DNA of 64,000 nt from a virus. Both the position numbers and the translations under genes were made by a program. The DNA lies in the IMG/VR virus record IMGVR_UViG_3300037149_000105, positions 83,411 through 147,410 of that record; one strand, written 5' to 3'. The first letter of the stretch is position 1. Each line of letters starts with the position of its first letter. The notes below the pieces were generated by a model. It was not told where the DNA came from. It worked only from the letters and a program-made list of their open reading frames with translations, and made no database searches. Shown piece by piece: positions 1 through 21,650 of this stretch.

Positions 1-128
1 CTAAGGCAAGTCCTCGATCACAGTTGTCTGATACCTGTGCAGAGGTCACGAAGAAACAGACTAAGCGTGTGAATAAGGCACTTCAATAGATTTCTTGGAC
101 GGGGATTCGATTTCCCCCACCTCCTCCA
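1..128 (+). ncRNA. ssrA: tmRNA, 3' portion (5' part outside window)
   Basis: CTAAGCGTGTGAA segment followed by GGACGGGGATTCGATTTCCCCCACCTCC-TCCA, the T-arm/acceptor 3' end typical of tmRNA; no D or anticodon arm upstream. Confidence 0.75.
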
Positions 129-3056: not shown

Positions 3057-3968
3057 GTGATTATGCACAACAACAACACCGTAGTATCCCTTTACGCCCT
3101 GAATGGTAGCCGAAAGACCCCGCTCAGAGAATACGATCACAAGCGTGGGGTTCTTGAATCTGAAGTTAGGGTTCCATTGAAATTTGATTCTGAGTATGGA
3201 ATCGGTTTCAAGTTTCAGGACATCGGTCGTCGTCGCCTTGAACTCTGGATTGACGGAGCGATGGTGACGGACAATCTCATTCTCGATGGAGAGAGCTTCC
3301 TGGAGCGATTCATGGATTCTGACAAGAGATTCCGTTTCGTTGAAGCAAGCAATGCTGCCGTGGCTGATCCGACCAGTCCCTCCAATGGGGGAGTCATGGT
3401 GAAGCTATGGCGTGAACAGCCTGATCTCCAGATGTTCAAACTGGCCCCGGATTACGGCAAGCAGTGGCCGCAGCCCCCAGTAGCCCCTTGGCAGCCCTGG
3501 ACTCCTCCAGTAGTGTGGGGCCGCTCTGATTGCCCAGGAGATCCTTCGCGGTCCTTGGATGTCATGTGTGGGGGCGCTACGTCATCTTCCTCACCCTCCG
3601 GTCCTCAAGGTCCGGTTGGTCAGCAAGGAGCCGTTGGAGTGCGAGGAATTGGGTATGGTGACAACATCGGAGAGTGTAATCTCTTCTGTTCATCCGCTCA
3701 GTCTCCCAGCCTCGCTGATGGATTCTGTTCGACGGAGATGTCCAACCTATCCCTCTTCGATAAGCTGAAGGGAGCGACAGTTGAAGGATCCACCTCCAAG
3801 CAGACCTTCAATGATACGGTTTGGCTGGGTGACTTTGGTAGCCCCTTGGTTTTCAAGTTCCAGCTTCACGGAATCGAAGAAGCCACACCGGGCAATTTCT
3901 GCCCAGGTTGTGGGATTAAACGCAAGAATCCCACTAACTTCTGCCCCAATTGTGGAGCAAAGCAATAG
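3057..3968 (+). CDS. hypothetical protein with short Gly-X-Y stretch and C-terminal zinc ribbon
   Basis: AAGGAGG RBS; GPQGPVGQQGAVGVRG; CPGC...CPNC. Confidence 0.85.
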   Translation: MIMHNNNTVVSLYALNGSRKTPLREYDHKRGVLESEVRVPLKFDSEYGIGFKFQDIGRRRLELWIDGAMVTDNLILDGESFLERFMDSDKRFRFVEASNAAVADPTSPSNGGVMVKLWREQPDLQMFKLAPDYGKQWPQPPVAPWQPWTPPVVWGRSDCPGDPSRSLDVMCGGATSSSSPSGPQGPVGQQGAVGVRGIGYGDNIGECNLFCSSAQSPSLADGFCSTEMSNLSLFDKLKGATVEGSTSKQTFNDTVWLGDFGSPLVFKFQLHGIEEATPGNFCPGCGIKRKNPTNFCPNCGAKQ

Positions 3969-3978
3969 TGGACCGAAC

Positions 3979-4050
3979 CTTCAAAGTTACCCCACCCTAT
4001 GGTGGGTATCCCTACTGCTTCCATGGTTCAGCATAGGGCACTCTTTGAAG
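3979..4050 (+). ncRNA. putative three-way-junction RNA
   Basis: CTTCAAAG/CTTTGAAG closing stem enclosing CCACC-CTAT-GGTGG and CCCTA..TGCT/AGCA-TAGGG hairpins. Confidence 0.4.
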
Positions 4051-4052
4051 TA

Positions 4053-4122
4053 GCATGGGGACTATAATCCCGGTGGTAAAGCCTCCACAAGGGGCCTGGA
4101 CGGTTCGACTCCGCCCCATGCG
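4053..4122 (+). ncRNA. tRNA-like RNA with non-canonical D and anticodon arms
   Basis: GCATGG/CCATGC terminal stem plus GGTTCGACTCC T arm; GCCTC-CACAA-GGGGC hairpin with 5-nt loop. Confidence 0.5.
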
Positions 4123-4128
4123 ATTAAT

Positions 4129-4218
4129 GGAAGTGTAAGCAAAGCAGGCAAGCTAGACTGTCTCGAAAACAGTTGGCCGATTTTCGGCCTAGGCGTTCGA
4201 CCCGCCTCACTTCCGCCA
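4129..4218 (+). tRNA. tRNA-Ser(CGA)
   Basis: GGAAGTG/CACTTCC-G-CCA; ACTGT-CTCGAAA-ACAGT; variable arm GGCCGA-TTT-TCGGCC. Confidence 0.9.
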
Positions 4219-4226
4219 TCATATTT

Positions 4227-4256
4227 GTGTGAGTCTTTAAAATAGACTAATGTCAA
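4227..4256 (+). repeat. 30-nt bulged-hairpin motif, copy 1 (degenerate)
   Basis: GTGT-GA-GTCTT-TAAAA-TAGAC-TAATG-TCAA. Confidence 0.6.
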
Positions 4257-4259
4257 ACT

Positions 4260-4335
4260 TGGACTGTAACTTCAGAGGCAGAAGGCTGCTTTTACACGGC
4301 AGAGGTCGAGATTTCGAAATTCTCCAGTCCAACCA
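4260..4335 (+). tRNA. tRNA-Val(TAC)
   Basis: TGGACTG/CAGTCCA-A-CCA; CTGCT-TTTACAC-GGCAG. Confidence 0.88.
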
Positions 4336-4378
4336 ATCCTCATCTTTCCGAACTACCGAGTATTATCATTGTAGGACA

Positions 4379-4408
4379 GTGTGAGTCTGAAACCCAGACT
4401 GACGACAC
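4379..4408 (+). repeat. 30-nt bulged-hairpin motif, copy 2
   Basis: GTGT-GA-GTCTG-AAACC-CAGAC-TGACG-ACAC. Confidence 0.7.
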
Positions 4409-4425
4409 ACACACACACACACACA
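4405..4425. repeat. (AC)10 dinucleotide microsatellite
   Basis: ACACACACACACACACACACA. Confidence 0.95.
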
Positions 4426-4480
4426 GGAAGCAGTTCATTGAAAATGGTCTCAGCAGTCCGACACACGCTTAGGCCACCAA

Positions 4481-4580
4481 GGGGAGAACGAGATTAGCTC
4501 ATGGAGAGCATCGGTTCTTTAGGCGTAGGGGATACCCTCACCACCGTGTGAAACGTTCGATTCGACTTCTCAGACTCCCC
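4481..4580 (+). ncRNA. tRNA-like RNA with extended acceptor stem and expanded anticodon loop
   Basis: GGGGAG/CTCCCC outer stem; TAGCTCATGGAGAGCA D arm; CGGT/ACCG stem enclosing AGGG-GATA-CCCT; GTTCGATTC T loop. Confidence 0.5.
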
Positions 4581-4601
4581 GATTATATGCCACAGTAGTA
4601 A

Positions 4602-4631
4602 GTGTGGGCCTACAAAATAGGCTAATGACAC
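4602..4631 (+). repeat. 30-nt bulged-hairpin motif, copy 3
   Basis: GTGT-GG-GCCTA-CAAAA-TAGGC-TAATG-ACAC. Confidence 0.75.
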
Positions 4632-4639
4632 GGTTAAGA

Positions 4640-4982
4640 GGTCTGAGTCGGTCACTGCCTTAGCCGGGGAACCGGATCCAGGTTCCCCGGATTTATACAA
4701 ATCGTTGAAGCCCCTCAAGGTCCTTGGGGCTCCGATATGGCGGCAACCAGATGAATGGTTGACAAAAGCAAGAGGCCGCTCTTCAAGGCAGAGCGAGTTC
4801 AGTTACGGCAACAACGGAGTCGATTCTCCATAGCGGGCTACCGCAAATCGCTTTGAAAGACTGAGCCCCCCGGCTCTCCGAAGACAGGAATCGTGAAACG
4901 GAGAGTGGAAGAAGTCCGAACCACTGGGGAGGAAAAGTTGCCGATGTGGGTAAGGTACGAAAGTATTGAATCCCACCCACCA
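4640..4982 (+). ncRNA. large multibranched structured RNA, family unassigned
   Basis: no credible ORF; many nested helices (see findings); ends in CCACCA, followed by an 11-bp hairpin at 4988-5016. Confidence 0.6.
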
Positions 4983-5034
4983 TGCACACGCCCCTGAACC
5001 AAACCTTCAGGGGCGTTCCATTTCAGGAGAGAAA

Positions 5035-5757
5035 ATGTTTGAGCCAAAAAAACTGAGTCCAGCGGAATTGTGCTTATGCCAGAACACCATCAGCCCCAAT
5101 ACATTCTACATGTTGGTTGGGGATGCGCTGGTATCTGGTAAACCCCTCTCGGTAGTTCGAATGGGGGATGGGGAACGAGCCCTCTATGACTACTGTCTGG
5201 GGAAACAGCTACCCAATATCATGGATGCGGATTGGATGCAACGACTCGGAGCCGATGGTATCGCAACGGATGAACTCCGGTATCGCCTGATTCGTGCCGC
5301 CACCCACTGCACCCACTTCGCTCCTTCCATTTCAGGAATTCAATTGGACAGTTTCGAACTCTACTCCCTATTCCCAGCCCGAGCCCGTTACGTTGATAAC
5401 TTTTTTGTCAACGCCTGGACGGAGGAGATGAAGATTCAACTTTTCAAAACTGCTGGCCATGTTCTCTTTATCCATCGGAACACTTCCACCGCAGATGCGA
5501 TGCAGATCAGAGCCAAATGGGGTCTAGGAGTCAAGGTGACCTATCTGAAGCTAGCTAGTTGGCGGGATTCGGAGTCAGTGATTGAGAAGGCCAAGAGCAT
5601 AGATGCTCCGCTAGTGCTGTTCAGTGCTGGTCCCGCTAGCAAATACATCGGTCCTGAAATTTCAACGAGTGGTTTGATTCCTCGTGTCACTTTGGATATC
5701 GGCAATGTGGCAGACTATTGGACCCTCACGAGTCTGAAAGATGTTCAAAGAATTTAA
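5035..5757 (+). CDS. GT-D fold-like glycosyltransferase domain protein
   Basis: LSVVRMGDGE near N-terminus and LFSAGPASK...TLDIGN near C-terminus; AGGAG RBS before ATG 5035. Confidence 0.6.
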   Translation: MFEPKKLSPAELCLCQNTISPNTFYMLVGDALVSGKPLSVVRMGDGERALYDYCLGKQLPNIMDADWMQRLGADGIATDELRYRLIRAATHCTHFAPSISGIQLDSFELYSLFPARARYVDNFFVNAWTEEMKIQLFKTAGHVLFIHRNTSTADAMQIRAKWGLGVKVTYLKLASWRDSESVIEKAKSIDAPLVLFSAGPASKYIGPEISTSGLIPRVTLDIGNVADYWTLTSLKDVQRI

Positions 5758-5763
5758 AAAATT

Positions 5764-5794
5764 GTATACGGATTTGCCAAAACTATGGTATAAT
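5764..5794 (+). promoter_or_regulatory. early-type promoter (GTATAC-N19-TATAAT)
   Basis: TGG-TATAAT -10 box; same layout as the other copies. Confidence 0.65.
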
Positions 5795-5805
5795 ATAGGT
5801 GTAGG

Positions 5806-6045
5806 GCAGATCATTGACAAGAAGCTCCAACGACGAGAGAACACAGAGGTAAGCCTCGTCGCTGTAGGGTTTGCAATCTAGCTTGGGGCATCGAAAGATG
5901 CGAACTTGATTCTTCGGAATCAACGGCACAACACAGGATGTGTTTCACCAAGCTTTATGTCGAGATTAGGGAAGCGCACCCAGAACGCTTCTTAACCAAA
6001 GTCCCGATACCACCCCAGTTGCATCCTCCACCTTCTAATGACTGC
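5806..6045 (+). ncRNA. stand-alone ~240-nt multibranched RNA
   Basis: between promoter 5764-5794 and terminator 6051-6077; paired ends; GAAA and C(TTCG)G tetraloop hairpins; no ORF. Confidence 0.65.
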
Positions 6046-6050
6046 GACAA

Positions 6051-6077
6051 GAGCCCCGAAAGGGGCTCAAGTTTTTT
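6051..6077 (+). terminator. intrinsic terminator
   Basis: GAGCCCC-GAAA-GGGGCTC followed by T6, between convergent units. Confidence 0.75.
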
Positions 6078-6675
6078 AATTTTCCAGTAAATCCGGATGA
6101 GTTTTTGTTAATCTGAGGTAGGCAGCGTGTTGTACAGGCCCTCCGTTAAACGCCGACACAACACTGGATGGGTTTCGCGCCTCTAAAATCACACGCCAGC
6201 CATCCCAACTGGCTATTCGTTTACCCCCAGAATCCTCAACTTTGCTGCAATGAGACAGCACTAGGGGTATCATGCGAAGCATATCAACCCCGGAGGAGAG
6301 TGGGTTCTCCTCCCCTGGGAACGCCTCAGCGTAAAGTTGCCTCAGTCTATCCCTCTTAGTCACAGTGTGATGCAACCCCATTCGCTCATCCCCCTTAATG
6401 AAATCTATCCAATCAGGAATGCTACCTATGTAGGTGGCTCCAAGCACATCGAGTCCGGTCTCCAAGTACTTGCTCATCGCTTCTTGACCCATTGTTAACC
6501 GATCACCCACATGAGTCTCTATTAGCTTCGGAGGGGTTCCAGGACCAGCCTTAATCTCTATTAATTTCCCATTTTTTATTCTTCGCCAATGAGCCCGATG
6601 ACCCATCAGGACCACATCCCTAGCGGATGCTTCTTTTAGCAATCTGGCTGCAAACTTGAATTTGAACCTGAACAT
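6076..6675 (-). CDS. putative BECR-fold (PBECR-like) ribonuclease domain protein
   Basis: GDERMGLHHTVTKR...IPLVL...RVIL....VVSAF resembles polyvalent-protein BECR nuclease domains. Confidence 0.4.
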   Translation of the reverse strand: MFRFKFKFAARLLKEASARDVVLMGHRAHWRRIKNGKLIEIKAGPGTPPKLIETHVGDRLTMGQEAMSKYLETGLDVLGATYIGSIPDWIDFIKGDERMGLHHTVTKRDRLRQLYAEAFPGEENPLSSGVDMLRMIPLVLSHCSKVEDSGGKRIASWDGWRVILEARNPSSVVSAFNGGPVQHAAYLRLTKTHPDLLEN

Positions 6676-6714
6676 CGTCGCCTCAACAAAGAGTTGCAGA
6701 TTCTGAAAATTTTT

Positions 6715-6745
6715 CTATACAAACCCCTTCGAAACAGGGTATACT
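6715..6745 (+). promoter_or_regulatory. early-type promoter
   Basis: CTATACAAA...GGTATACT. Confidence 0.7.
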
Positions 6746-6785
6746 AGTTAGGTAGGGGACGAAGAGCCCTTCAAAGGAGAAACAC

Positions 6786-7154
6786 ATGGAAGGCAAGCGT
6801 TTCAGCATCAACGGAATCAAGGTCACGGCAACCCATCTGGGTGGGGGCCTCTATGTCGGCATCCCCGACAACCTGGGTGAAGCCCTCAAGGCCCTCAAGA
6901 CTCTCCTGAGTGGTGCACTGTTCGAGCCCCGTGACATCCAGCTTCTGCCCGATGAGCCCAAGGGCACCCCGCAGGGTCACTACACCGCCCCCAAGGCTCC
7001 CGCCGCCCCCAAGCCCGACTTCTCCAACGAGACGGTCCTGGAGCACTGCAAGCGCAAGGGCTACAGCCAGCGGGACTTCGCTGACCTGATCGGCAAGCAT
7101 CACAAGACCGTGTGGCGGTGGCAGCAGGAAGGCAAGAAGATGTCCGAGGTCTAA
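6786..7154 (+). CDS. protein with C-terminal Xre/Cro-type HTH
   Basis: GYSQRDFADLIGKHHKTVWRWQ; AAGGAG RBS. Confidence 0.8.
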   Translation: MEGKRFSINGIKVTATHLGGGLYVGIPDNLGEALKALKTLLSGALFEPRDIQLLPDEPKGTPQGHYTAPKAPAAPKPDFSNETVLEHCKRKGYSQRDFADLIGKHHKTVWRWQQEGKKMSEV

Positions 7155-7258
7155 CCGGCTGGAGTGCCGGGGAGCTTAGGAATGTCAGAGACCCCCGATA
7201 CGTAGATCCGGCAGAATGGGCTGAACGTAGTAGGTTGGCCCCTCCAGCGTCAACGCAT

Positions 7259-7276
7259 AGCCCCGAAAGGGGCTTT
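7259..7276 (+). terminator. hairpin, possible terminator
   Basis: AGCCCC-GAAA-GGGGCT-TT. Confidence 0.5.
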
Positions 7277-7294
7277 GGTGGTAGAGGGGGCTAT

Positions 7295-7537
7295 ATGAAG
7301 TTCACCACTGGTGGTCACTATGGCATAGAGGCTAAGGATCTGGAAGACAATACGGTGAGTGTCGTGGCCGAGGATGGCCGAGTGATGTTTGCAGTCATCT
7401 TGGGTGAGGATGGCCACTCCATCGAAGTCCGGAGTTCCGCAACCTGCAAGGTTGGGGGAGTCCTTTATGATTCGCGCCTCTTGGTTCAGCCCGAAGCATC
7501 CAATTCCATTTTCATCAAGGCTCGTTCCTATGAGTAA
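7295..7537 (+). CDS. hypothetical protein
   Basis: GAGGGGG RBS before ATG 7295; the longer ORF call from 7112 runs through structured intergenic DNA. Confidence 0.7.
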   Translation: MKFTTGGHYGIEAKDLEDNTVSVVAEDGRVMFAVILGEDGHSIEVRSSATCKVGGVLYDSRLLVQPEASNSIFIKARSYE

Positions 7538-7691
7538 ATGGAAATATTACAACTGCCCCCAATGCGGGGCCATCTTGGAGCGAAGATGCTGGGCTCCTCT
7601 GGGAGAGAAACGAGTTAGGTTTCTCTTCTGCCGTGAGTGCCGGGTCCGCTACACGACCAAGGACATGGTTCTTAATAAGGAGTTCAAATGA
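7530..7691 (+). CDS. small zinc-ribbon protein
   Basis: CPQC...CREC; overlapping start and stop with neighbours. Confidence 0.6.
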   Translation: MSKWKYYNCPQCGAILERRCWAPLGEKRVRFLFCRECRVRYTTKDMVLNKEFK

Positions 7692-7915
7692 GCAAACTGT
7701 GCGTTTTTTGTGAACATATGGAGTTCGATCACGAGGATGCTCATGGCGGAGGCTGTGAAACCTGCGGCTATGGGGCAGATGAGGGCCGAAACGATATGGT
7801 CTGTCAGAAGGGCCACTGGAAGACCGGAATTGAGTGGGGCCTGACCAGTTACCGTGAGAAAATCTGTGCCGCTGAAACCTGCACTGATTACGAACAGGCC
7901 GAGGACGAAGATTAG
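7688..7915 (+). CDS. small Cys-rich hypothetical protein
   Basis: AAGGAG RBS; CVFC, CETC. Confidence 0.75.
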   Translation: MSKLCVFCEHMEFDHEDAHGGGCETCGYGADEGRNDMVCQKGHWKTGIEWGLTSYREKICAAETCTDYEQAEDED

Positions 7916-7945
7916 CTATACAAACTCTCCGGTCTGAGGTATACT
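7916..7945 (+). promoter_or_regulatory. early-type promoter
   Basis: CTATACAAA...GGTATACT. Confidence 0.7.
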
Positions 7946-7983
7946 AATTGGGAAGGGGCCGAAACCCCACTGAGGAGAATCGC

Positions 7984-8253
7984 ATGGCTCTCGAACGTCA
8001 GGACATCCGTATCTCGAACCGGATATACCTTCTGCTCAACCCGGAGGATTCGGACACCCCGGCCCTGGTCCATACCAAGGACTGGAAGGCTTCGGCCACC
8101 TACACCTGTGTGATGGGTGAGGGAGTCCTCATGTCCAATCGAGATGAGGATGTGGAACTCACGCCCCAGGAACTGAAGACCCTTGACAAGTATGAGGATC
8201 TGGAATGCCAGTATAACGAGGAAGCTCGTAAGGACTGTCCTGAATACCAGTAG
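7984..8253 (+). CDS. hypothetical protein
   Basis: GAGGAG RBS, ATG 7984. Confidence 0.75.
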   Translation: MALERQDIRISNRIYLLLNPEDSDTPALVHTKDWKASATYTCVMGEGVLMSNRDEDVELTPQELKTLDKYEDLECQYNEEARKDCPEYQ

Positions 8254-11529: not shown

Positions 11530-12966
11530 GTGTCCAACCTGCTTAACGCCATCACCCGCACTCAGAACTACACCCGTACCGAGAATGGTGCGCTGACGCA
11601 TCAGTCCACGCTGGACGGTGTGCTTGACTTCTATTACCACGCTCCCGCTCGTCGGGGTCAGGACAACACTGCCCTCTTCTTGAAGGCATTTGGCGAGGAC
11701 CGTCTGACGGCCATCCGCTGCCTTTTCTACATCCGTGACATCCGTGGGGGTCAGGGGGAGCGTGAGACCTTCCGTCAGGGTCTGCGCGAACTGTACAAGA
11801 ACTTCCGTGAGGTGTTCGACCACATCCTCTCCTATGTGCCGGTCTACGGTCGTTGGGACGACATCGTGGAGTACGTCTCCGATCAGAAGGTCGTGTCGGT
11901 CATCCATGAGCAGCTAAACCTGGATCTCGGATCCGAAGAGGGTGTGAGCCTCCTGGCGAAGTGGATGCCCTCCATCAACACCTCTTCCAAGGAGACGGTC
12001 GCCCTGGCGCACCGATGGGTGAAGGCTCTGGGTTGGACTCCCGTCCAGTACCGCAAGAATCTCTCTACCCTCCGTGGCCGCATCAAGCTGGTCGAGACCG
12101 CCATGTCCCAGAACCAGTGGGACTCCATCTCTTACGGCCAGATTCCATCCCGTGCGGGTCTGCTCTACAAGGATGCGTTCAAGCGTCATGATGGTGCTCG
12201 TTACGACGAGTTCCTGGCGGCGGTTGTGCGGGGTGAGGAGAAAATCAACTCCGGCACCCTCTACCCCTACGAACTGGTGGCCAAGTCCATCGGCCAGAAG
12301 GACCAGACCGCCGAGGCGATGTGGAAGTGCCTGCCGAACTATGCGGATACCGACGACAACGCTCTGGTTGTCGCAGATGTTTCGGGCTCGATGTGTGGGG
12401 CTCGTGGGCCAAGCAACATCGCCCCGATCACCGTGTGCATCAGCCTCGCCATCTATCTGGCTGAGCGGAACAAGGGGATCTTCCACAACAAGTTCATCAC
12501 CTTCAGTGAGACCCCGGCTGTCCAGTCTCTCAAGGGGGACACCCTCTACGAGAAGGTCAGCAACCTCTCCAGGGCAACCTGGGGCATGAACACCAATCTC
12601 CAGTCGGTGTTCAATGTCGTTCTGTCCACGGCGGTCAAGGCGAAGCTCCCGGCCAGCGAAATGCCGACCAAGATTTTCATCATCTCCGACATGGAGTTTG
12701 ACTCTTGCGTGACGAACAACACCAACCTGGAAGTGATCAAGGCGAAGTATGCGGCCTCCGGCTACACGCTCCCAACCATCATCTTCTGGAACGTGGATTC
12801 CCGCAACGATCAGACCCCGGTCACGATGGATGAGAAGGGCACGTATCTGGTCTCCGGATGCAGCCCCAGCATCTTCGAAAAGGCCATCAAGGCTCAGGCG
12901 TGTAGTCCCATCGAAATGTGTTTGGAGGTTTTGAACGGACCTCGCTACGAGCCGATCACTCTGTGA
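11530..12966 (+). CDS. DUF2828-type TROVE/Ro60-like protein with C-terminal vWA
   Basis: TENGA, RDIRGGQGER, GRWDD, LAKWMP, TLYPYE, VADVSGSM, WGMNTN, ISDMEFD, IIFWNV. Confidence 0.85.
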   Translation: MSNLLNAITRTQNYTRTENGALTHQSTLDGVLDFYYHAPARRGQDNTALFLKAFGEDRLTAIRCLFYIRDIRGGQGERETFRQGLRELYKNFREVFDHILSYVPVYGRWDDIVEYVSDQKVVSVIHEQLNLDLGSEEGVSLLAKWMPSINTSSKETVALAHRWVKALGWTPVQYRKNLSTLRGRIKLVETAMSQNQWDSISYGQIPSRAGLLYKDAFKRHDGARYDEFLAAVVRGEEKINSGTLYPYELVAKSIGQKDQTAEAMWKCLPNYADTDDNALVVADVSGSMCGARGPSNIAPITVCISLAIYLAERNKGIFHNKFITFSETPAVQSLKGDTLYEKVSNLSRATWGMNTNLQSVFNVVLSTAVKAKLPASEMPTKIFIISDMEFDSCVTNNTNLEVIKAKYAASGYTLPTIIFWNVDSRNDQTPVTMDEKGTYLVSGCSPSIFEKAIKAQACSPIEMCLEVLNGPRYEPITL

Positions 12967-20318: not shown

Positions 20319-21650
20319 TTAAGGCTTGAGTATTGCGGTTTCGCTCAGTTTTTGTGAATGCTTGATATGGAACTCAAAATTATAGCCAGCCTGTTTGACT
20401 GCTTGTGCTTTGGCGTGGTTCATAGCCAAAGTTTTTTGATAAGTGTACACTGATTTTACCTCAATGATTAGGTTCTTGGATTTAATAAAAATGTCAGGGT
20501 AATACCTACGTAATTTTCCTTTGAATTCATAGAAGAAACTAGGGCAGTCAATTCCGGTTAAAATATCAGCTTCTGAAGTGCCCGAATCTAACAACTCTTG
20601 AATAACTAAAGGCTCGTATCCTTGGACTTGGATAGTCTTTCCAGAAGGAAAAGTGAACGTCTTACGAGCATAACCTAACTTTAATCTGGAGTGAAAGAAT
20701 ATGGGAGACTGAAGCGGGTAAGGCACTCCATACTTGTTAATATTTGTTACCTCTCCTTTTGCACGAATCTCTGCCGATTGATAAGGGGCGGTAACTCCAT
20801 AACGAGCCACACAAGTCAAAGCTCGCTTAGCTTCGCATTCCGGATTTTGGCGGGGATGTTCATACCCCGTCTTTATTCTCTGACCTTCTTTCCATTTTTT
20901 ATTTTTTGCGTAGTGTCCCCCATAACGAGCATTTATTGTCTCCTGAATACGCCTACCCATCCCAGGAATTTGAAATACGTTGTCCACTCCAAACATTTTT
21001 TGGAGCACAGCTTTTCTTTTTTCATACCCAGATTTTAAGGATCCATGCCTGCTAATTTCAGTCTCCTGTTTTTTAGCTACAAACTCAGGAAGACTAATGG
21101 GATTAGCCACTCCATAGCGGTTAAGACAGGTTTGCTCTCTTTTCTCAATGAAAGAGTGATCCTGTGTATGGTGCTCCACGCCGTACCGTTCCAATGAAGT
21201 TTTTCTTCTCTCTTCTTCAGAATGAGCACACTTAGCCGGACACTTCTTGTAATGATCTGAACAACACCAATACCAATGAAGAACCTGCCCCGTATTTGTC
21301 TTGACCGATTTCATCAGATGAAACTTAGCCAGAGATCCACAGCCATTTTCGCATAGTTGGCCCTCAGAGGGCAACTCAGCACTCCTCCTTGCTTGCCGCT
21401 CCTTCTGCCCTTTGGCATGTCTTTCCTTTTGAATTTTCGCTCTGGTTTCCAAATCCATAATAGAGACTGCATGGGCTGTAGTATTTTTTGATTGCATAAG
21501 TCTGTAACCTAGACATTCCCTAGCCTTTTGATGACAACAGTACAACCTTTTAGCAGCATGGTAGTAATTTCCAGCACCGCCACACAGATAGCAGCTACCC
21601 ACTTGTTCAGCCGTGACCTCAACAAATTTAAAATAGTTTGAATTTGGTAT
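20319..21650 (-). CDS. homing-endonuclease-like protein (RYGV repeats plus PD-(D/E)xK domain)
   Basis: repeated T...RYGV; YYPDIFIKSKNLIIEVKS; frame open from ATA 21650 behind AAGGAG. Confidence 0.8.
   Translation of the reverse strand: MPNSNYFKFVEVTAEQVGSCYLCGGAGNYYHAAKRLYCCHQKARECLGYRLMQSKNTTAHAVSIMDLETRAKIQKERHAKGQKERQARRSAELPSEGQLCENGCGSLAKFHLMKSVKTNTGQVLHWYWCCSDHYKKCPAKCAHSEEERRKTSLERYGVEHHTQDHSFIEKREQTCLNRYGVANPISLPEFVAKKQETEISRHGSLKSGYEKRKAVLQKMFGVDNVFQIPGMGRRIQETINARYGGHYAKNKKWKEGQRIKTGYEHPRQNPECEAKRALTCVARYGVTAPYQSAEIRAKGEVTNINKYGVPYPLQSPIFFHSRLKLGYARKTFTFPSGKTIQVQGYEPLVIQELLDSGTSEADILTGIDCPSFFYEFKGKLRRYYPDIFIKSKNLIIEVKSVYTYQKTLAMNHAKAQAVKQAGYNFEFHIKHSQKLSETAILKP

What the first reader, a model, noticed from the sequence alone, without database searches (positions are those of the whole stretch)
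5764..6077. Self-contained promoter-ncRNA-terminator unit (~240 nt)
Seen: the promoter (TATAAT at 5789) and terminator (6051) enclose no ORF. The ends pair (GCAG-A-TCATT..AGAAG with CTTCT-AATGA-CTGC). Inside are CGACGAG/CTCGTCG, a junction closed by AGCTTGG/CCAAGCT with GCATC-GAAA-GATGC and TTGATTC-TTCG-GAATCAA hairpins, and GAAGCG/CGCTTC. The stable tetraloops argue for a selected RNA fold. Inference: an early-expressed RNA, such as a 6S-like decoy, protein sponge or anti-defence RNA.
Basis: partly seen in the sequence, partly recalled or inferred. Interest (0 to 1): 0.7.

Follow-up and report, generated by a model that had tools for sequence, protein, structure and literature searches.

The report
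Abundant structured phage RNA beside RNase
A large peat and freshwater phage makes very large amounts of a new, intricately folded 270-base non-coding RNA that travels with a predicted RNA-cutting enzyme gene and may exist as a closed circle, so it is probably a new RNA partner or antidote of that enzyme.

Summary

**Transcript.** Contigs from four metatranscriptomes of four studies cover exactly 5800/5801 to 6070/6072. Their k-mer depth is about 100-300 times that of neighbouring genes. The unit is therefore a real, discrete 270-273-nt RNA. All four contigs are joined head to tail, so the RNA is circular, or reverse transcriptase jumps between ends held together by the closing helix.

**Family and structure.** No Rfam family matches, including 6S and Y RNA. 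One clear homologue (L024, 80% identical) shows six compensatory pair changes in three helices.

**Genetic context.**
- In the window and in L024 the RNA lies tail to tail with a 188-199-aa gene. This gene is remotely related to PBECR1, a family of BECR-fold RNases.
- A third, weaker locus (L031) has the same layout.
- A close relative phage (L012) lacks the whole cassette but keeps the Ro-like gene, so this is not its Y RNA.

**Reading.** My best reading (confidence about 0.45) is a new phage ncRNA that acts as partner, antidote or regulator of the RNase. The 6S-like idea is not supported.

**Earlier scan notes.** The scan noted head-to-tail joined phage RNAs before, in two other genomes (e1-5706161, e1-5682151). 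Those were different RNAs.

The parts
5765..5794 (+). Promoter: TATACG (-35-like) at 5765-5770 and extended -10 TGGTATAAT at 5786-5794. It is a member of a 7-copy phage promoter motif.
   Evidence: The same motif with the same spacing to the G start is kept in L024 (GGTATACT) and L031 (GGTATAAT).
5801..6073 (+). Mature RNA A, 270-273 nt. The 5' end is G5801, 7 nt after the -10. The 3' ends lie at 6070-6073, just after the terminator stem.
   Evidence: Contigs of 4 metatranscriptomes from 4 studies span 5800/5801 to 6070/6072 and wrap head to tail. No Rfam match. Folding z = -3.0.
5806..5824 (+). 5' strand of closing helix P1 (GCAG, bulged A, UCAUU, GACA loop, AGAAG). It pairs with 6032-6045.
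   Evidence: In L024 the same three pairings are possible with differently spaced 3' partners, but no covariation is seen (reading).
6032..6045 (+). 3' strand of closing helix P1 (CUUCU-AAUGA-CUGC).
5831..5861 (+). Hairpin P2: 7 bp with a 17-nt loop that ends in the conserved GGUAAG.
   Evidence: Two compensatory pair changes versus L024. The loop motif GGUARG is kept in L024 and L031.
5880..5954 (+). Cloverleaf-shaped four-way junction: a 7-bp closing stem plus three hairpins with GAAA, UUCG and ACACAGGA loops.
   Evidence: The closing stem has two compensatory changes. The hairpins are conserved, with G-C to G-U changes. Model R1 finds only the window and L024 copies.
5971..5991 (+). Hairpin P4: 6 bp with a conserved 9-nt loop, CACCCAGAA.
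   Evidence: Two compensatory pair changes versus L024, with an identical loop.
6051..6077 (+). Intrinsic terminator: a 7-bp G+C-rich stem, a GAAA loop, AAG, then six T.
   Evidence: The RNA contigs end 2-5 nt after the stem.
6076..6675 (-). Convergent 199-aa gene, a remote PBECR1-like (BECR-fold) predicted RNase. It is the RNA's conserved neighbour.
   Evidence: Homologues are P0002-P0008. PF18809 hits in 4 of 7 family members map to the C-terminal half. Invariant residues are H29, R31, R32, K34, W89, D91 and H103, with S/T at position 174. The AlphaFold model has pLDDT 83. The nearest folds are CdiA-CT, RelE, BrnT and colicin D RNases at weak Z of 2.5-4.6.
5016..6709 (.). Accessory block holding the GT-D-like gene (5035-5757), RNA A and the RNase-like gene. 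It is absent from the close relative phage L012.
   Evidence: In the BLAST of the window against L012, window 5015 joins window 6710 at L012 4733/4736. L024 has RNA A and the RNase-like gene without the GT-D gene.

Best explanation
Positions 5801-6073 encode a new family of phage non-coding RNA.

**Shown.**
- It is transcribed from its own promoter, of the phage's shared type, starting at G5801.
- It ends at an intrinsic terminator and is trimmed to 6070-6073.
- It accumulates far above neighbouring mRNAs.
- It folds into a closing helix that carries a hairpin (P2), a cloverleaf-like four-way junction and a second hairpin (P4). Three of these helices are backed by compensatory changes.

**Shown in two distinct loci, possibly a third.** The RNA is inherited as a cassette, tail to tail, with a 188-199-aa gene whose C-terminal half is a remote PBECR1/BECR-fold RNase domain.

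**Inferred.**
- The RNA is the partner of that RNase. Most likely it is an abundant RNA antidote or regulator that binds the enzyme, or its N-terminal basic HWRRxKxG domain, and holds its activity in check or directs it.
- An added antisense effect on the 3' end of the RNase mRNA is possible.
- The head-to-tail joints may mean that part of the RNA is covalently circular, which would explain its stability. The phage's Rnl5-type ligase or a host ligase would be the candidate enzyme.
For: **Transcript, ends and abundance.**
- In four RNA runs of four studies, contigs cover 5800/5801-6070/6072 with no differing letters.
- Depths are 2243, 1575, 19.9 and 164.8, against 4-19 for contigs of flanking genes in the same runs.
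- The ends coincide with the predicted start and the terminator.

**Structure.**
- Folding z = -3.0.
- There are 6 compensatory pairs in P2, the junction stem and P4, and 95.5% of cells are paired versus 32-43% for slid controls.
- G-U pairs fit the + strand only.

**Not coding.** Frame-breaking indels separate the homologues.

**Linkage.**
- L024 (70% identical protein, 80% identical RNA) keeps promoter, RNA and convergent gene but lacks the GT-D gene.
- L030-L032 (32% identical protein) have a 660-875-nt gene-free stretch in the same place and orientation. It starts with GGTATAAT-N6-GTAAGGCA..TTGACA..GCTCC and a covarying P2-like hairpin.
- The cassette is missing from close relative L012, as expected for an accessory two-part module.

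**The protein is an RNase relative.** Solo PBECR domains in phages are predicted RNases (PMC5512222).

**Head-to-tail joints.** The joints are 6070->5801 (X15, X20) and 6072->5800 (X16, X18).

**A ligase is available.** An NgrRnl-like ligase (E = 2e-81 to 5cot) is encoded in the same record.
Against: - No experiment or computation here shows that the RNA and the protein touch.
- The window's own protein does not reach PF18809 by itself, and the fold matches are weak (Z <= 4.6).
- Only two firm RNA homologues exist.
- The third (L031) scores 6 bits, E about 8, with model R2. Its junction modules are not found by R1, and its fold is no more stable than shuffles (z = 0).
- The closing helix P1 shows conservation but no covariation.
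- Phage 'solo' RNases need no antidote if they simply attack the host.
- The layout fits neither textbook type I nor type III toxin-antitoxin systems: it is convergent, without repeats, and the protein is large.
- Circularity is not proven. Contigs show only that junction reads exist. Assembly tip-clipping could let rare reverse-transcriptase template switches, on an RNA whose ends are held together by P1, produce the same wrapped contigs.
- Rnl5 ligases seal nicks in duplexes, and the RNA's ends are not a clean nick.
Confidence: 0.45

Rival explanations
1. A stand-alone stable RNA that acts on a host target, as a decoy or sponge for a host protein, a defence nuclease or RNA polymerase. Under this reading the neighbouring RNase-like gene is merely carried in the same mobile block.
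For: The RNA has its own strong promoter and terminator and very high abundance. It has stable GNRA and UUCG-capped hairpins and conserved loops (GGUAAG, ACACAGGA, CACCCAGAA) that could be protein or RNA contact sites. It sits in an accessory block that varies between close relatives, as anti-defence genes often do.
Against: The RNA and the RNase-like gene stay together in L024 although the third gene of the block is lost. No similarity to 6S or any other Rfam decoy family was found. No host or host target is known.
Confidence: 0.25
2. One of several cargo RNAs of the phage's RNA island (tmRNA, tRNAs, RNA B and others). It would be handled by the phage's RNA-repair and quality-control set (Rnl5-type ligase, Ro-like DUF2828 protein). 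It would work as an RNA-only architectural particle in the manner proposed for ROOL and GOLLD, and circularisation would be part of its maturation.
For: It lies at the end of a tRNA/tmRNA island. Neighbouring RNAs at 4701-4983, 3927-4125 and 4632-4696 give head-to-tail contigs too. Ligase and Ro-like genes are present in the record. ROOL and GOLLD are phage RNAs near tRNA islands (bioRxiv 10.1101/2024.12.08.627333). GNRA loops are typical tertiary-contact elements.
Against: L012 keeps the island, RNA B and the Ro-like gene but lacks RNA A, so RNA A is not a core part of that system. At 270 nt it is far smaller than ROOL or GOLLD, and no Rfam match was found. No multimer evidence exists.
Confidence: 0.15
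3. A purely cis-antisense regulator, like a type I antitoxin. The RNA pairs with the 3' end of the convergent RNase mRNA and triggers its decay. The elaborate fold would serve only stability.
For: The two genes are convergent and share the terminator region. In L024 the RNA's 3' part overlaps about 45 nt of the coding 3' end of the gene.
Against: In the window the overlap with the coding region is at most 2 nt. The conserved, covarying parts are far from the overlap. No better-than-shuffled pairing with the translation start region was found.
Confidence: 0.1
4. Not an RNA gene at all: a long 3' UTR of the GT-D-like gene, a small protein gene, or DNA contamination of the RNA libraries.
For: ORFs of 46-50 aa overlap the region. 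One gene caller annotated a 46-aa product there.
Against: RNA contigs begin at 5800/5801, not upstream, and their depth is 100-300 times that of the GT-D gene contigs. L024 has the promoter and RNA without the GT-D gene. Indels between the homologues break every frame and substitutions are compensatory in stems.
Confidence: 0.03

Closest known systems
RNA antitoxins of toxin-antitoxin systems with RNase toxins (type III ToxI-ToxN; type I antisense RNAs such as RatA/txpA or SR4/bsrG)
   Same: A small, abundant, structured RNA is encoded directly beside a (predicted) endoribonuclease gene with a terminator between them. The pair is inherited as a two-part accessory module. Like several type I pairs, it is convergent with shared 3' ends.
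   Different: There are no tandem repeats and the RNA is not upstream on the same strand, unlike type III. The protein is a 199-aa BECR-fold-like enzyme, not a small membrane peptide (type I) and not a ToxN/AbiEii-type toxin. To my knowledge no RNA inhibitor of a BECR-fold RNase is described. Neutralisation was not tested.
ROOL and GOLLD (large ornate phage RNAs near tRNA islands)
   Same: It is phage-encoded, lies next to a tRNA island, is highly structured with many capped hairpins, has no known protein partner by sequence, and has unknown function (bioRxiv 10.1101/2024.12.08.627333).
   Different: No match to their Rfam models was found. It is 270 nt rather than about 580-800 nt or more. 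It has its own promoter and terminator, is linked to an RNase-like gene, and is very rare.
Ligase-made circular non-coding RNAs (archaeal Rnl3-dependent C/D-box sRNA circles, PMC9014305; bacterial DucS, PMC10504365)
   Same: The whole transcript ends are joined head to tail, with slightly variable 3' ends. There is no intron or ribozyme signature. An ATP-dependent RNA ligase is encoded in the same genome.
   Different: The host is a DNA phage of bacteria. The ligase is Rnl5-type (nick-sealing), not Rnl3. Circularity here rests on assembled contigs only.
6S RNA
   Same: It is an abundant, stable, stand-alone non-coding RNA with paired ends.
   Different: No 6S model matches. The fold is a multi-branched cloverleaf-type junction instead of a long rod with a central bubble.
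Y RNA / YrlA with Ro60 (Rsr)
   Same: The phage has a Ro-like (DUF2828) protein gene 5.5 kb away. The RNA has a terminal closing helix with a bulge and a cloverleaf-like module.
   Different: No YrlA or Y RNA match was found in the region. The relative L012 keeps the Ro-like gene at 91% identity but lacks this RNA.

Membership tests
6S RNA (RF00013 and relatives) | Match to the family covariance models | tested here: not met
   There was no 6S hit at gathering score over the window, nor at E <= 10 over 5600-6300.
6S RNA (RF00013 and relatives) | Rod-like helix of about 180-200 nt with a large central bubble that mimics an open promoter | tested here: not met
   The fold supported by covariation is a closing helix with two hairpins and a four-way junction.
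6S RNA (RF00013 and relatives) | Binds the RNA polymerase holoenzyme and templates pRNA | not testable with these tools
   This needs biochemistry.
Y RNA / YrlA (Ro60 partner) | Match to the Y_RNA or YrlA models | tested here: not met
   No hit was found in 5600-6300 at E <= 10. The only weak YrlA hit lies elsewhere, at 2862-2971, E = 0.7.
Y RNA / YrlA (Ro60 partner) | Co-inheritance with the Ro-like gene | tested here: not met
   L012 has the DUF2828 gene (91% identical) and RNA B but lacks window 5016-6709.
Type III toxin-antitoxin RNA (ToxI-like) | Tandem direct repeats that are cut into units | tested here: not met
   No tandem or direct repeats occur within 5801-6073.
Type III toxin-antitoxin RNA (ToxI-like) | RNA gene upstream of the toxin gene on the same strand, with a terminator between | tested here: not met
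   The RNA and the gene are convergent.
Type III toxin-antitoxin RNA (ToxI-like) | The partner protein is an endoribonuclease that the RNA neutralises | tested here: inconclusive
   The partner is a remote PBECR1/BECR-fold relative. Neutralisation cannot be tested here.
Type I toxin-antitoxin antisense RNA | Antisense overlap with the toxin mRNA | tested here: inconclusive
   In the window the overlap is the terminator region only, with at most 2 nt of coding sequence. In L024 about 45 nt of the coding 3' end overlap.
Type I toxin-antitoxin antisense RNA | The toxin is a small hydrophobic peptide | tested here: not met
   The protein has 199 aa and is modelled as a soluble alpha/beta protein.
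ROOL / GOLLD | Match to the family covariance models | tested here: not met
   No hit was found.
ROOL / GOLLD | Phage-encoded, next to a tRNA island | tested here: met
   Six to seven tRNAs and a tmRNA 3' part lie within 5.8 kb upstream.
PBECR1 (PF18809), for the neighbouring protein | Pfam match above the gathering score | tested here: inconclusive
   The window protein has no hit. Among relatives found with its profile, P0008 scores 34.4 bits (above the 27.6 cut-off), P0007 27.2, P0006 18.4 and P0004 16.0. All map to the C-terminal half.
PBECR1 (PF18809), for the neighbouring protein | BECR fold: a helix followed by a 4-5-stranded sheet | tested here: inconclusive
   In the model (pLDDT 83), residues 87-184 align best to CdiA-CT toxins, BrnT, RelE and colicin D, but only at Z 2.5-4.6 and Foldseek E = 0.03.
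PBECR1 (PF18809), for the neighbouring protein | Histidine in the core helix plus Ser/Thr in the last strand (PMC5512222) | tested here: met
   H103 is invariant at the start of helix 100-118. Position 174 is S or T in the six full-length sequences and lies in strand 170-177.
Ligase-made circular RNA | Head-to-tail junction of the transcript ends in RNA data | tested here: met
   The joints are 6070->5801 in X15 and X20 and 6072->5800 in X16 and X18, four studies in all.
Ligase-made circular RNA | Covalently closed molecule (RNase R resistance, gel behaviour) | not testable with these tools
   Contigs cannot tell circles from template-switch products.
Ligase-made circular RNA | A suitable RNA ligase is available | tested here: inconclusive
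   An Rnl5-type ligase is encoded at G000:C1:53294-54517. No RtcB was found in this half-complete record. Its substrate preference is for nicked duplexes, and the ends are not a clean nick.

The most novel reading that the evidence does not exclude
A DNA phage encodes a covalently circular, cloverleaf-bearing RNA that serves as the RNA antidote or specificity factor of a BECR-fold RNase. This would be an RNA-protein toxin/immunity pairing of a kind not described before. It would also be the first of several circularised RNAs made from a phage RNA island with the help of a phage Rnl5-type ligase.
Probability: 0.15. Interest if true: 0.85.

Novelty: new variant of a known kind. Interest (0 to 1): 0.62.

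Why it matters
Phage RNA islands hold many structured RNAs of unknown role. Here one of them is shown to be real, discrete, extremely abundant in nature and tied to a candidate protein partner, which gives it a directly testable function.

- **If the RNA controls the RNase.** It would add an RNA-based immunity or regulation mode to the large BECR toxin world, where only protein immunity partners are known.
- **If the RNA is truly circular.** It would support the view that bacteriophages make ligase-closed RNAs, something so far documented mainly in archaea and in a single Bacillus sRNA.

The element is small (270 nt plus a 600-nt gene). It is therefore easy to test in a laboratory strain.

Tried and rejected
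**Homologue searches that found nothing useful**
- BLASTN of 5000-7200 against GenBank phages gave no match.
- Relatives of the GT-D-like gene (L004-L007) carry no RNA downstream.
- IMG/VR pattern scans found only the identical contig or chance coding hits.
- Scans of species genomes found nothing.
- The JGI metagenome scan gave one fragment only.
- Contigs encoding the identical protein carry an identical RNA apart from one SNP, so they add no covariation.
- L035/L036 (P0005) hold truncated gene copies without the RNA.
- Contigs of P0003 and P0004 had no DNA on hand.

**Models and pairing tests**
- Model R1 (junction plus P4) does not find the L031 modules.
- Model R2 (5' domain) scores L031 at only 6 bits.
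- Pairing of the RNA with the RNase gene's translation start region is no better than shuffles.

**Circularity**
- A search for a strand that would splint the two ends as a nick was not specific for RNA A.
- A look-up of the 46-aa antisense ORF, meant to find permuted contigs, returned nothing.

**Other checks**
- The RNA contigs of the four runs leave 6218-6670, the RNase gene, uncovered.
- The ESM Atlas gave no usable lead for the protein.
- RtcB and T4 Rnl1 families were not found in this 51%-complete record. The Rnl1 control rang nowhere, so that result is uninformative.
- The idea that the RNA is the Y-RNA-like partner of the DUF2828 protein was my first lead. I dropped it.

Full report
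**Setting.** The window is the last 64 kb of a 147,410-nt IMG/VR virus record that is estimated to be 51% complete.
- The phage DNA is found in 14 or more peat and freshwater metagenome runs.
- The first 5 kb of the window form an RNA island. It holds six ARAGORN tRNAs, a seventh tRNA seen by Rfam, and the 3' part of a tmRNA.
- The finding lies at the downstream edge of this island.

**The observation.**
- The -10 box at 5789-5794 is preceded by TGG. It belongs to a repeated phage promoter motif, TATAC-N17-19-(G)GTATAMT. The motif has five + strand copies in the window against 0.07 expected and seven copies in the record.
- The terminator is at 6051-6068 and is followed by six T.
- Rfam gives nothing for the region, either at gathering score or at E <= 10.

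**The transcript is real and discrete.**
- Six metatranscriptome runs hold 27-37% of the sampled words of a 901-nt probe. That share is the size of the RNA alone.
- I laid four of these runs, from four studies, on 3500-8000. Each has one contig covering 5800/5801 to 6070/6072 with no differing letters. Their k-mer depths are 2243, 1575, 19.9 and 164.8.
- Contigs from flanking genes in the same runs have depths of 4-19. Depth from contigs is a rough measure, but a 100-300-fold contrast within one phage and one run cannot come from DNA carry-over.
- The 5' end, G5801, is 7 nt after the -10 box. The 3' ends lie 2-5 nt after the terminator stem, as expected for a terminated and trimmed stable RNA.

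**Head-to-tail joints.** All four contigs are circularly permuted.
- The joint is 6070->5801 (a 270-nt unit) in X15 and X20, and 6072->5800 (273 nt) in X16 and X18.
- Contig lengths equal the unit plus about k-1, which is the signature of a cycle in the assembly graph.
- Neighbouring island RNAs behave the same way: 4701-4983 in three runs, and 3927-4125 and 4632-4696 in one run.
- The record encodes a 407-aa RNA ligase with the PHA02142 OB domain and the RNA_ligase domain. It is related to Naegleria NgrRnl (Rnl5; E = 2e-81). No RtcB was found.
- I rate true covalent circles at about even odds, for two reasons:
  - Short dead-end tips are clipped during assembly. Rare junction reads can therefore close a contig.
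  - An RNA whose ends are clamped by helix P1 is a good substrate for intramolecular template switching by reverse transcriptase.
- Either way, the joints define the two ends precisely.

**Structure.**
- Cut at its true ends, the RNA folds with z = -3.0 (0 of 200 shuffles as stable).
- A homologue in an ENA wood metagenome contig (L024) is 80% identical over the 5' two thirds.
- On the pairwise alignment, the seven helices I specified are 95.5% paired, against 32-43% when partners are slid by 1-3 columns. Six pairs change on both sides, two each in P2, the junction closing stem and P4 (4 of 500 shuffles reach this).
- The loops GGUAAG, GAAA, UUCG, ACACAGGA and CACCCAGAA are unchanged.
- Several changes give G-U pairs that would be A-C on the other strand, so the + strand is the RNA.
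- Indels of 1 and 2 nt exclude a conserved reading frame.
- Two sequences are few. P1 is conserved but does not covary.

**Genomic logic.**
- The close relative L012 has a DUF2828 protein 91% identical to the window's, and the neighbouring RNA B is 85% identical at the DNA level. It lacks window 5016-6709 entirely. That block holds the GT-D-like gene (5035-5757), RNA A and the minus-strand 199-aa gene (6076-6675).
- L024 has RNA A, with its promoter, and the convergent gene, but no GT-D gene. The conserved pair is therefore the RNA plus the 199-aa gene.
- The result also removes my first idea, that RNA A is the Y-RNA-like partner of the Ro-like DUF2828 protein at 11530-12966.

**The neighbouring protein.**
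- It has very few relatives.
- A profile of the three closest reaches P0004, P0006, P0007 and P0008. These four hit Pfam PBECR1 in their C-terminal halves, at 16 to 34.4 bits against a cut-off of 27.6.
- The window's own protein does not hit PBECR1 by itself.
- The family alignment has invariant H29, R31, R32, K34, G36, W89, D91, G95 and H103, and S/T at position 174.
- An AlphaFold model (pLDDT 83, pTM 0.80) puts H103 at the head of a helix and S174 in the last strand. This is the His-plus-Ser/Thr arrangement described for PBECR and colicin-D-like RNases (PMC5512222).
- Fold searches give only weak scores (Foldseek E = 0.03; Z <= 4.6). However, the lists are filled with BECR-fold RNases: CdiA-CT toxins, BrnT, RelE/ParE, colicin D and colicin E5.
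- I therefore call it a probable BECR-fold RNase, not a proven one.

**A possible third locus.**
- The P0006 contigs (L030-L032) are identical to each other in this region. They carry a 660-875-nt gene-free stretch downstream of the gene, in a tRNA-rich phage context.
- On the convergent strand the stretch starts with GGTATAAT, six bases, GTAAGGCA, then TTGACA..GCTCC. An 8-bp hairpin follows whose stem differs at nearly every pair from the window's P2. Its loop ends in GGGUAGG, and UGUAUAGGGUU comes next.
- Two tandem multi-hairpin junction modules then follow.
- I noticed this similarity by eye. Model R2 gives it only 6 bits, R1 does not find the modules, and the region is no more stable than shuffles. 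I count it as suggestive only.

**Mechanism.**
- Shown: the promoter family, the terminator, the transcript ends, the abundance, the helices P2, P3 and P4, and linkage to the gene in two distinct loci.
- Inferred: the RNA is the functional partner of the RNase-like protein.
  - The most economical model is an abundant RNA that binds the enzyme and restrains or directs it.
  - Binding could be through the cloverleaf-like junction as a substrate mimic, or through the conserved loops.
  - This is analogous in logic to RNA antitoxins of RNase toxins.
  - Antisense pairing at the shared 3' ends may add to the effect.
  - The layout fits neither textbook type I nor type III systems, and no RNA inhibitor of a BECR RNase is known to me.
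- The rival readings remain open: a decoy for a host factor, an island cargo RNA of the ROOL/GOLLD sort, and a pure antisense regulator.
- 6S-like mimicry is not supported.

**Novelty and scores.**
- The RNA belongs to no curated family and is rare, known from one phage lineage plus one or two distant loci.
- The scan has reported head-to-tail joined phage RNAs in two other genomes (e1-5706161, e1-5682151). Those are different RNAs. The recurrence could reflect either shared biology or a shared artefact of contig-based evidence.
- I score interest at 0.62. This is a solidly real, very abundant, new structured RNA with a concrete and cheap functional test, but its mechanism and circularity are still inferred.

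Noticed in passing
window 4701-4983: Neighbouring RNA B is 283 nt and ends in CCACCA-U. It is equally abundant in the RNA runs (depths 3449, 1850 and 99.5). It is also joined head to tail (4983->4701) in three studies, and X20 has a 4698-5018 form. Its two ends can abut on one template strand, 4733-4740 (CGAUAUGG against CCAU|AUCG), like a nick in a duplex. It is conserved in L012 (85%), and its 5' part is present in L024.
   Followed up: partly
window 3927-4125 and 4632-4696: Two more island RNAs give head-to-tail contigs in run X15, as units of 199 nt and 65 nt. The first ends in a tRNA-like T arm (GGUUCGACUCC) 3 nt before tRNA-Ser(cga).
   Followed up: no
window 1-128: The 3' part of a tmRNA runs off the window start (RF00023 positions 236-374, 41.8 bits, cut at its 5' end). 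The phage therefore carries its own tmRNA.
   Followed up: no
window 4260-4332: Rfam finds a tRNA here (45.7 bits) that ARAGORN did not call. The tRNA-Ser(tga) at 2831-2918 scores weakly as tRNA-Sec.
   Followed up: no
window 5765, 6716, 7917, 9856, 14811; record 74114, 76302: A seven-copy promoter-like motif, TATACAAA-N14-GGTATACT, lies on the + strand only. Each copy sits ahead of a hairpin or ribosome binding site. Two copies share the transcribed start GTAGGG.
   Followed up: partly
window 11530-12966: A Ro-like DUF2828/DUF7788 protein (phrog_850, E = 7e-144). Relatives occur in 706 GenBank phage records of very different hosts, including Mycobacterium, Bacillus, Escherichia and Synechococcus phages.
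   Followed up: partly
G000:C1:53294-54517 (L008:832-2055), outside the window: An Rnl5-type RNA ligase (OB domain plus nucleotidyltransferase; E = 2e-81 to Naegleria NgrRnl). It is followed by an HNH endonuclease gene (L008:2099-2680).
   Followed up: partly
L031:1535-2014 minus strand (same in L030 and L032): A long gene-free region lies convergent to the P0006 gene. It holds two tandem five-way-junction modules, each with a GNRA hairpin, a GAAA mini-hairpin and a hairpin with the identical 7-nt loop AGACUAG.
   Followed up: partly
window 20319-21602: A DUF7487 / homing-endonuclease-like gene lies among the structural genes (PF24308, E = 1e-61).
   Followed up: no
window 4395-4434: A CA-dinucleotide run inside the RNA island. 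The read-laying tool skipped it as a repeat.
   Followed up: no
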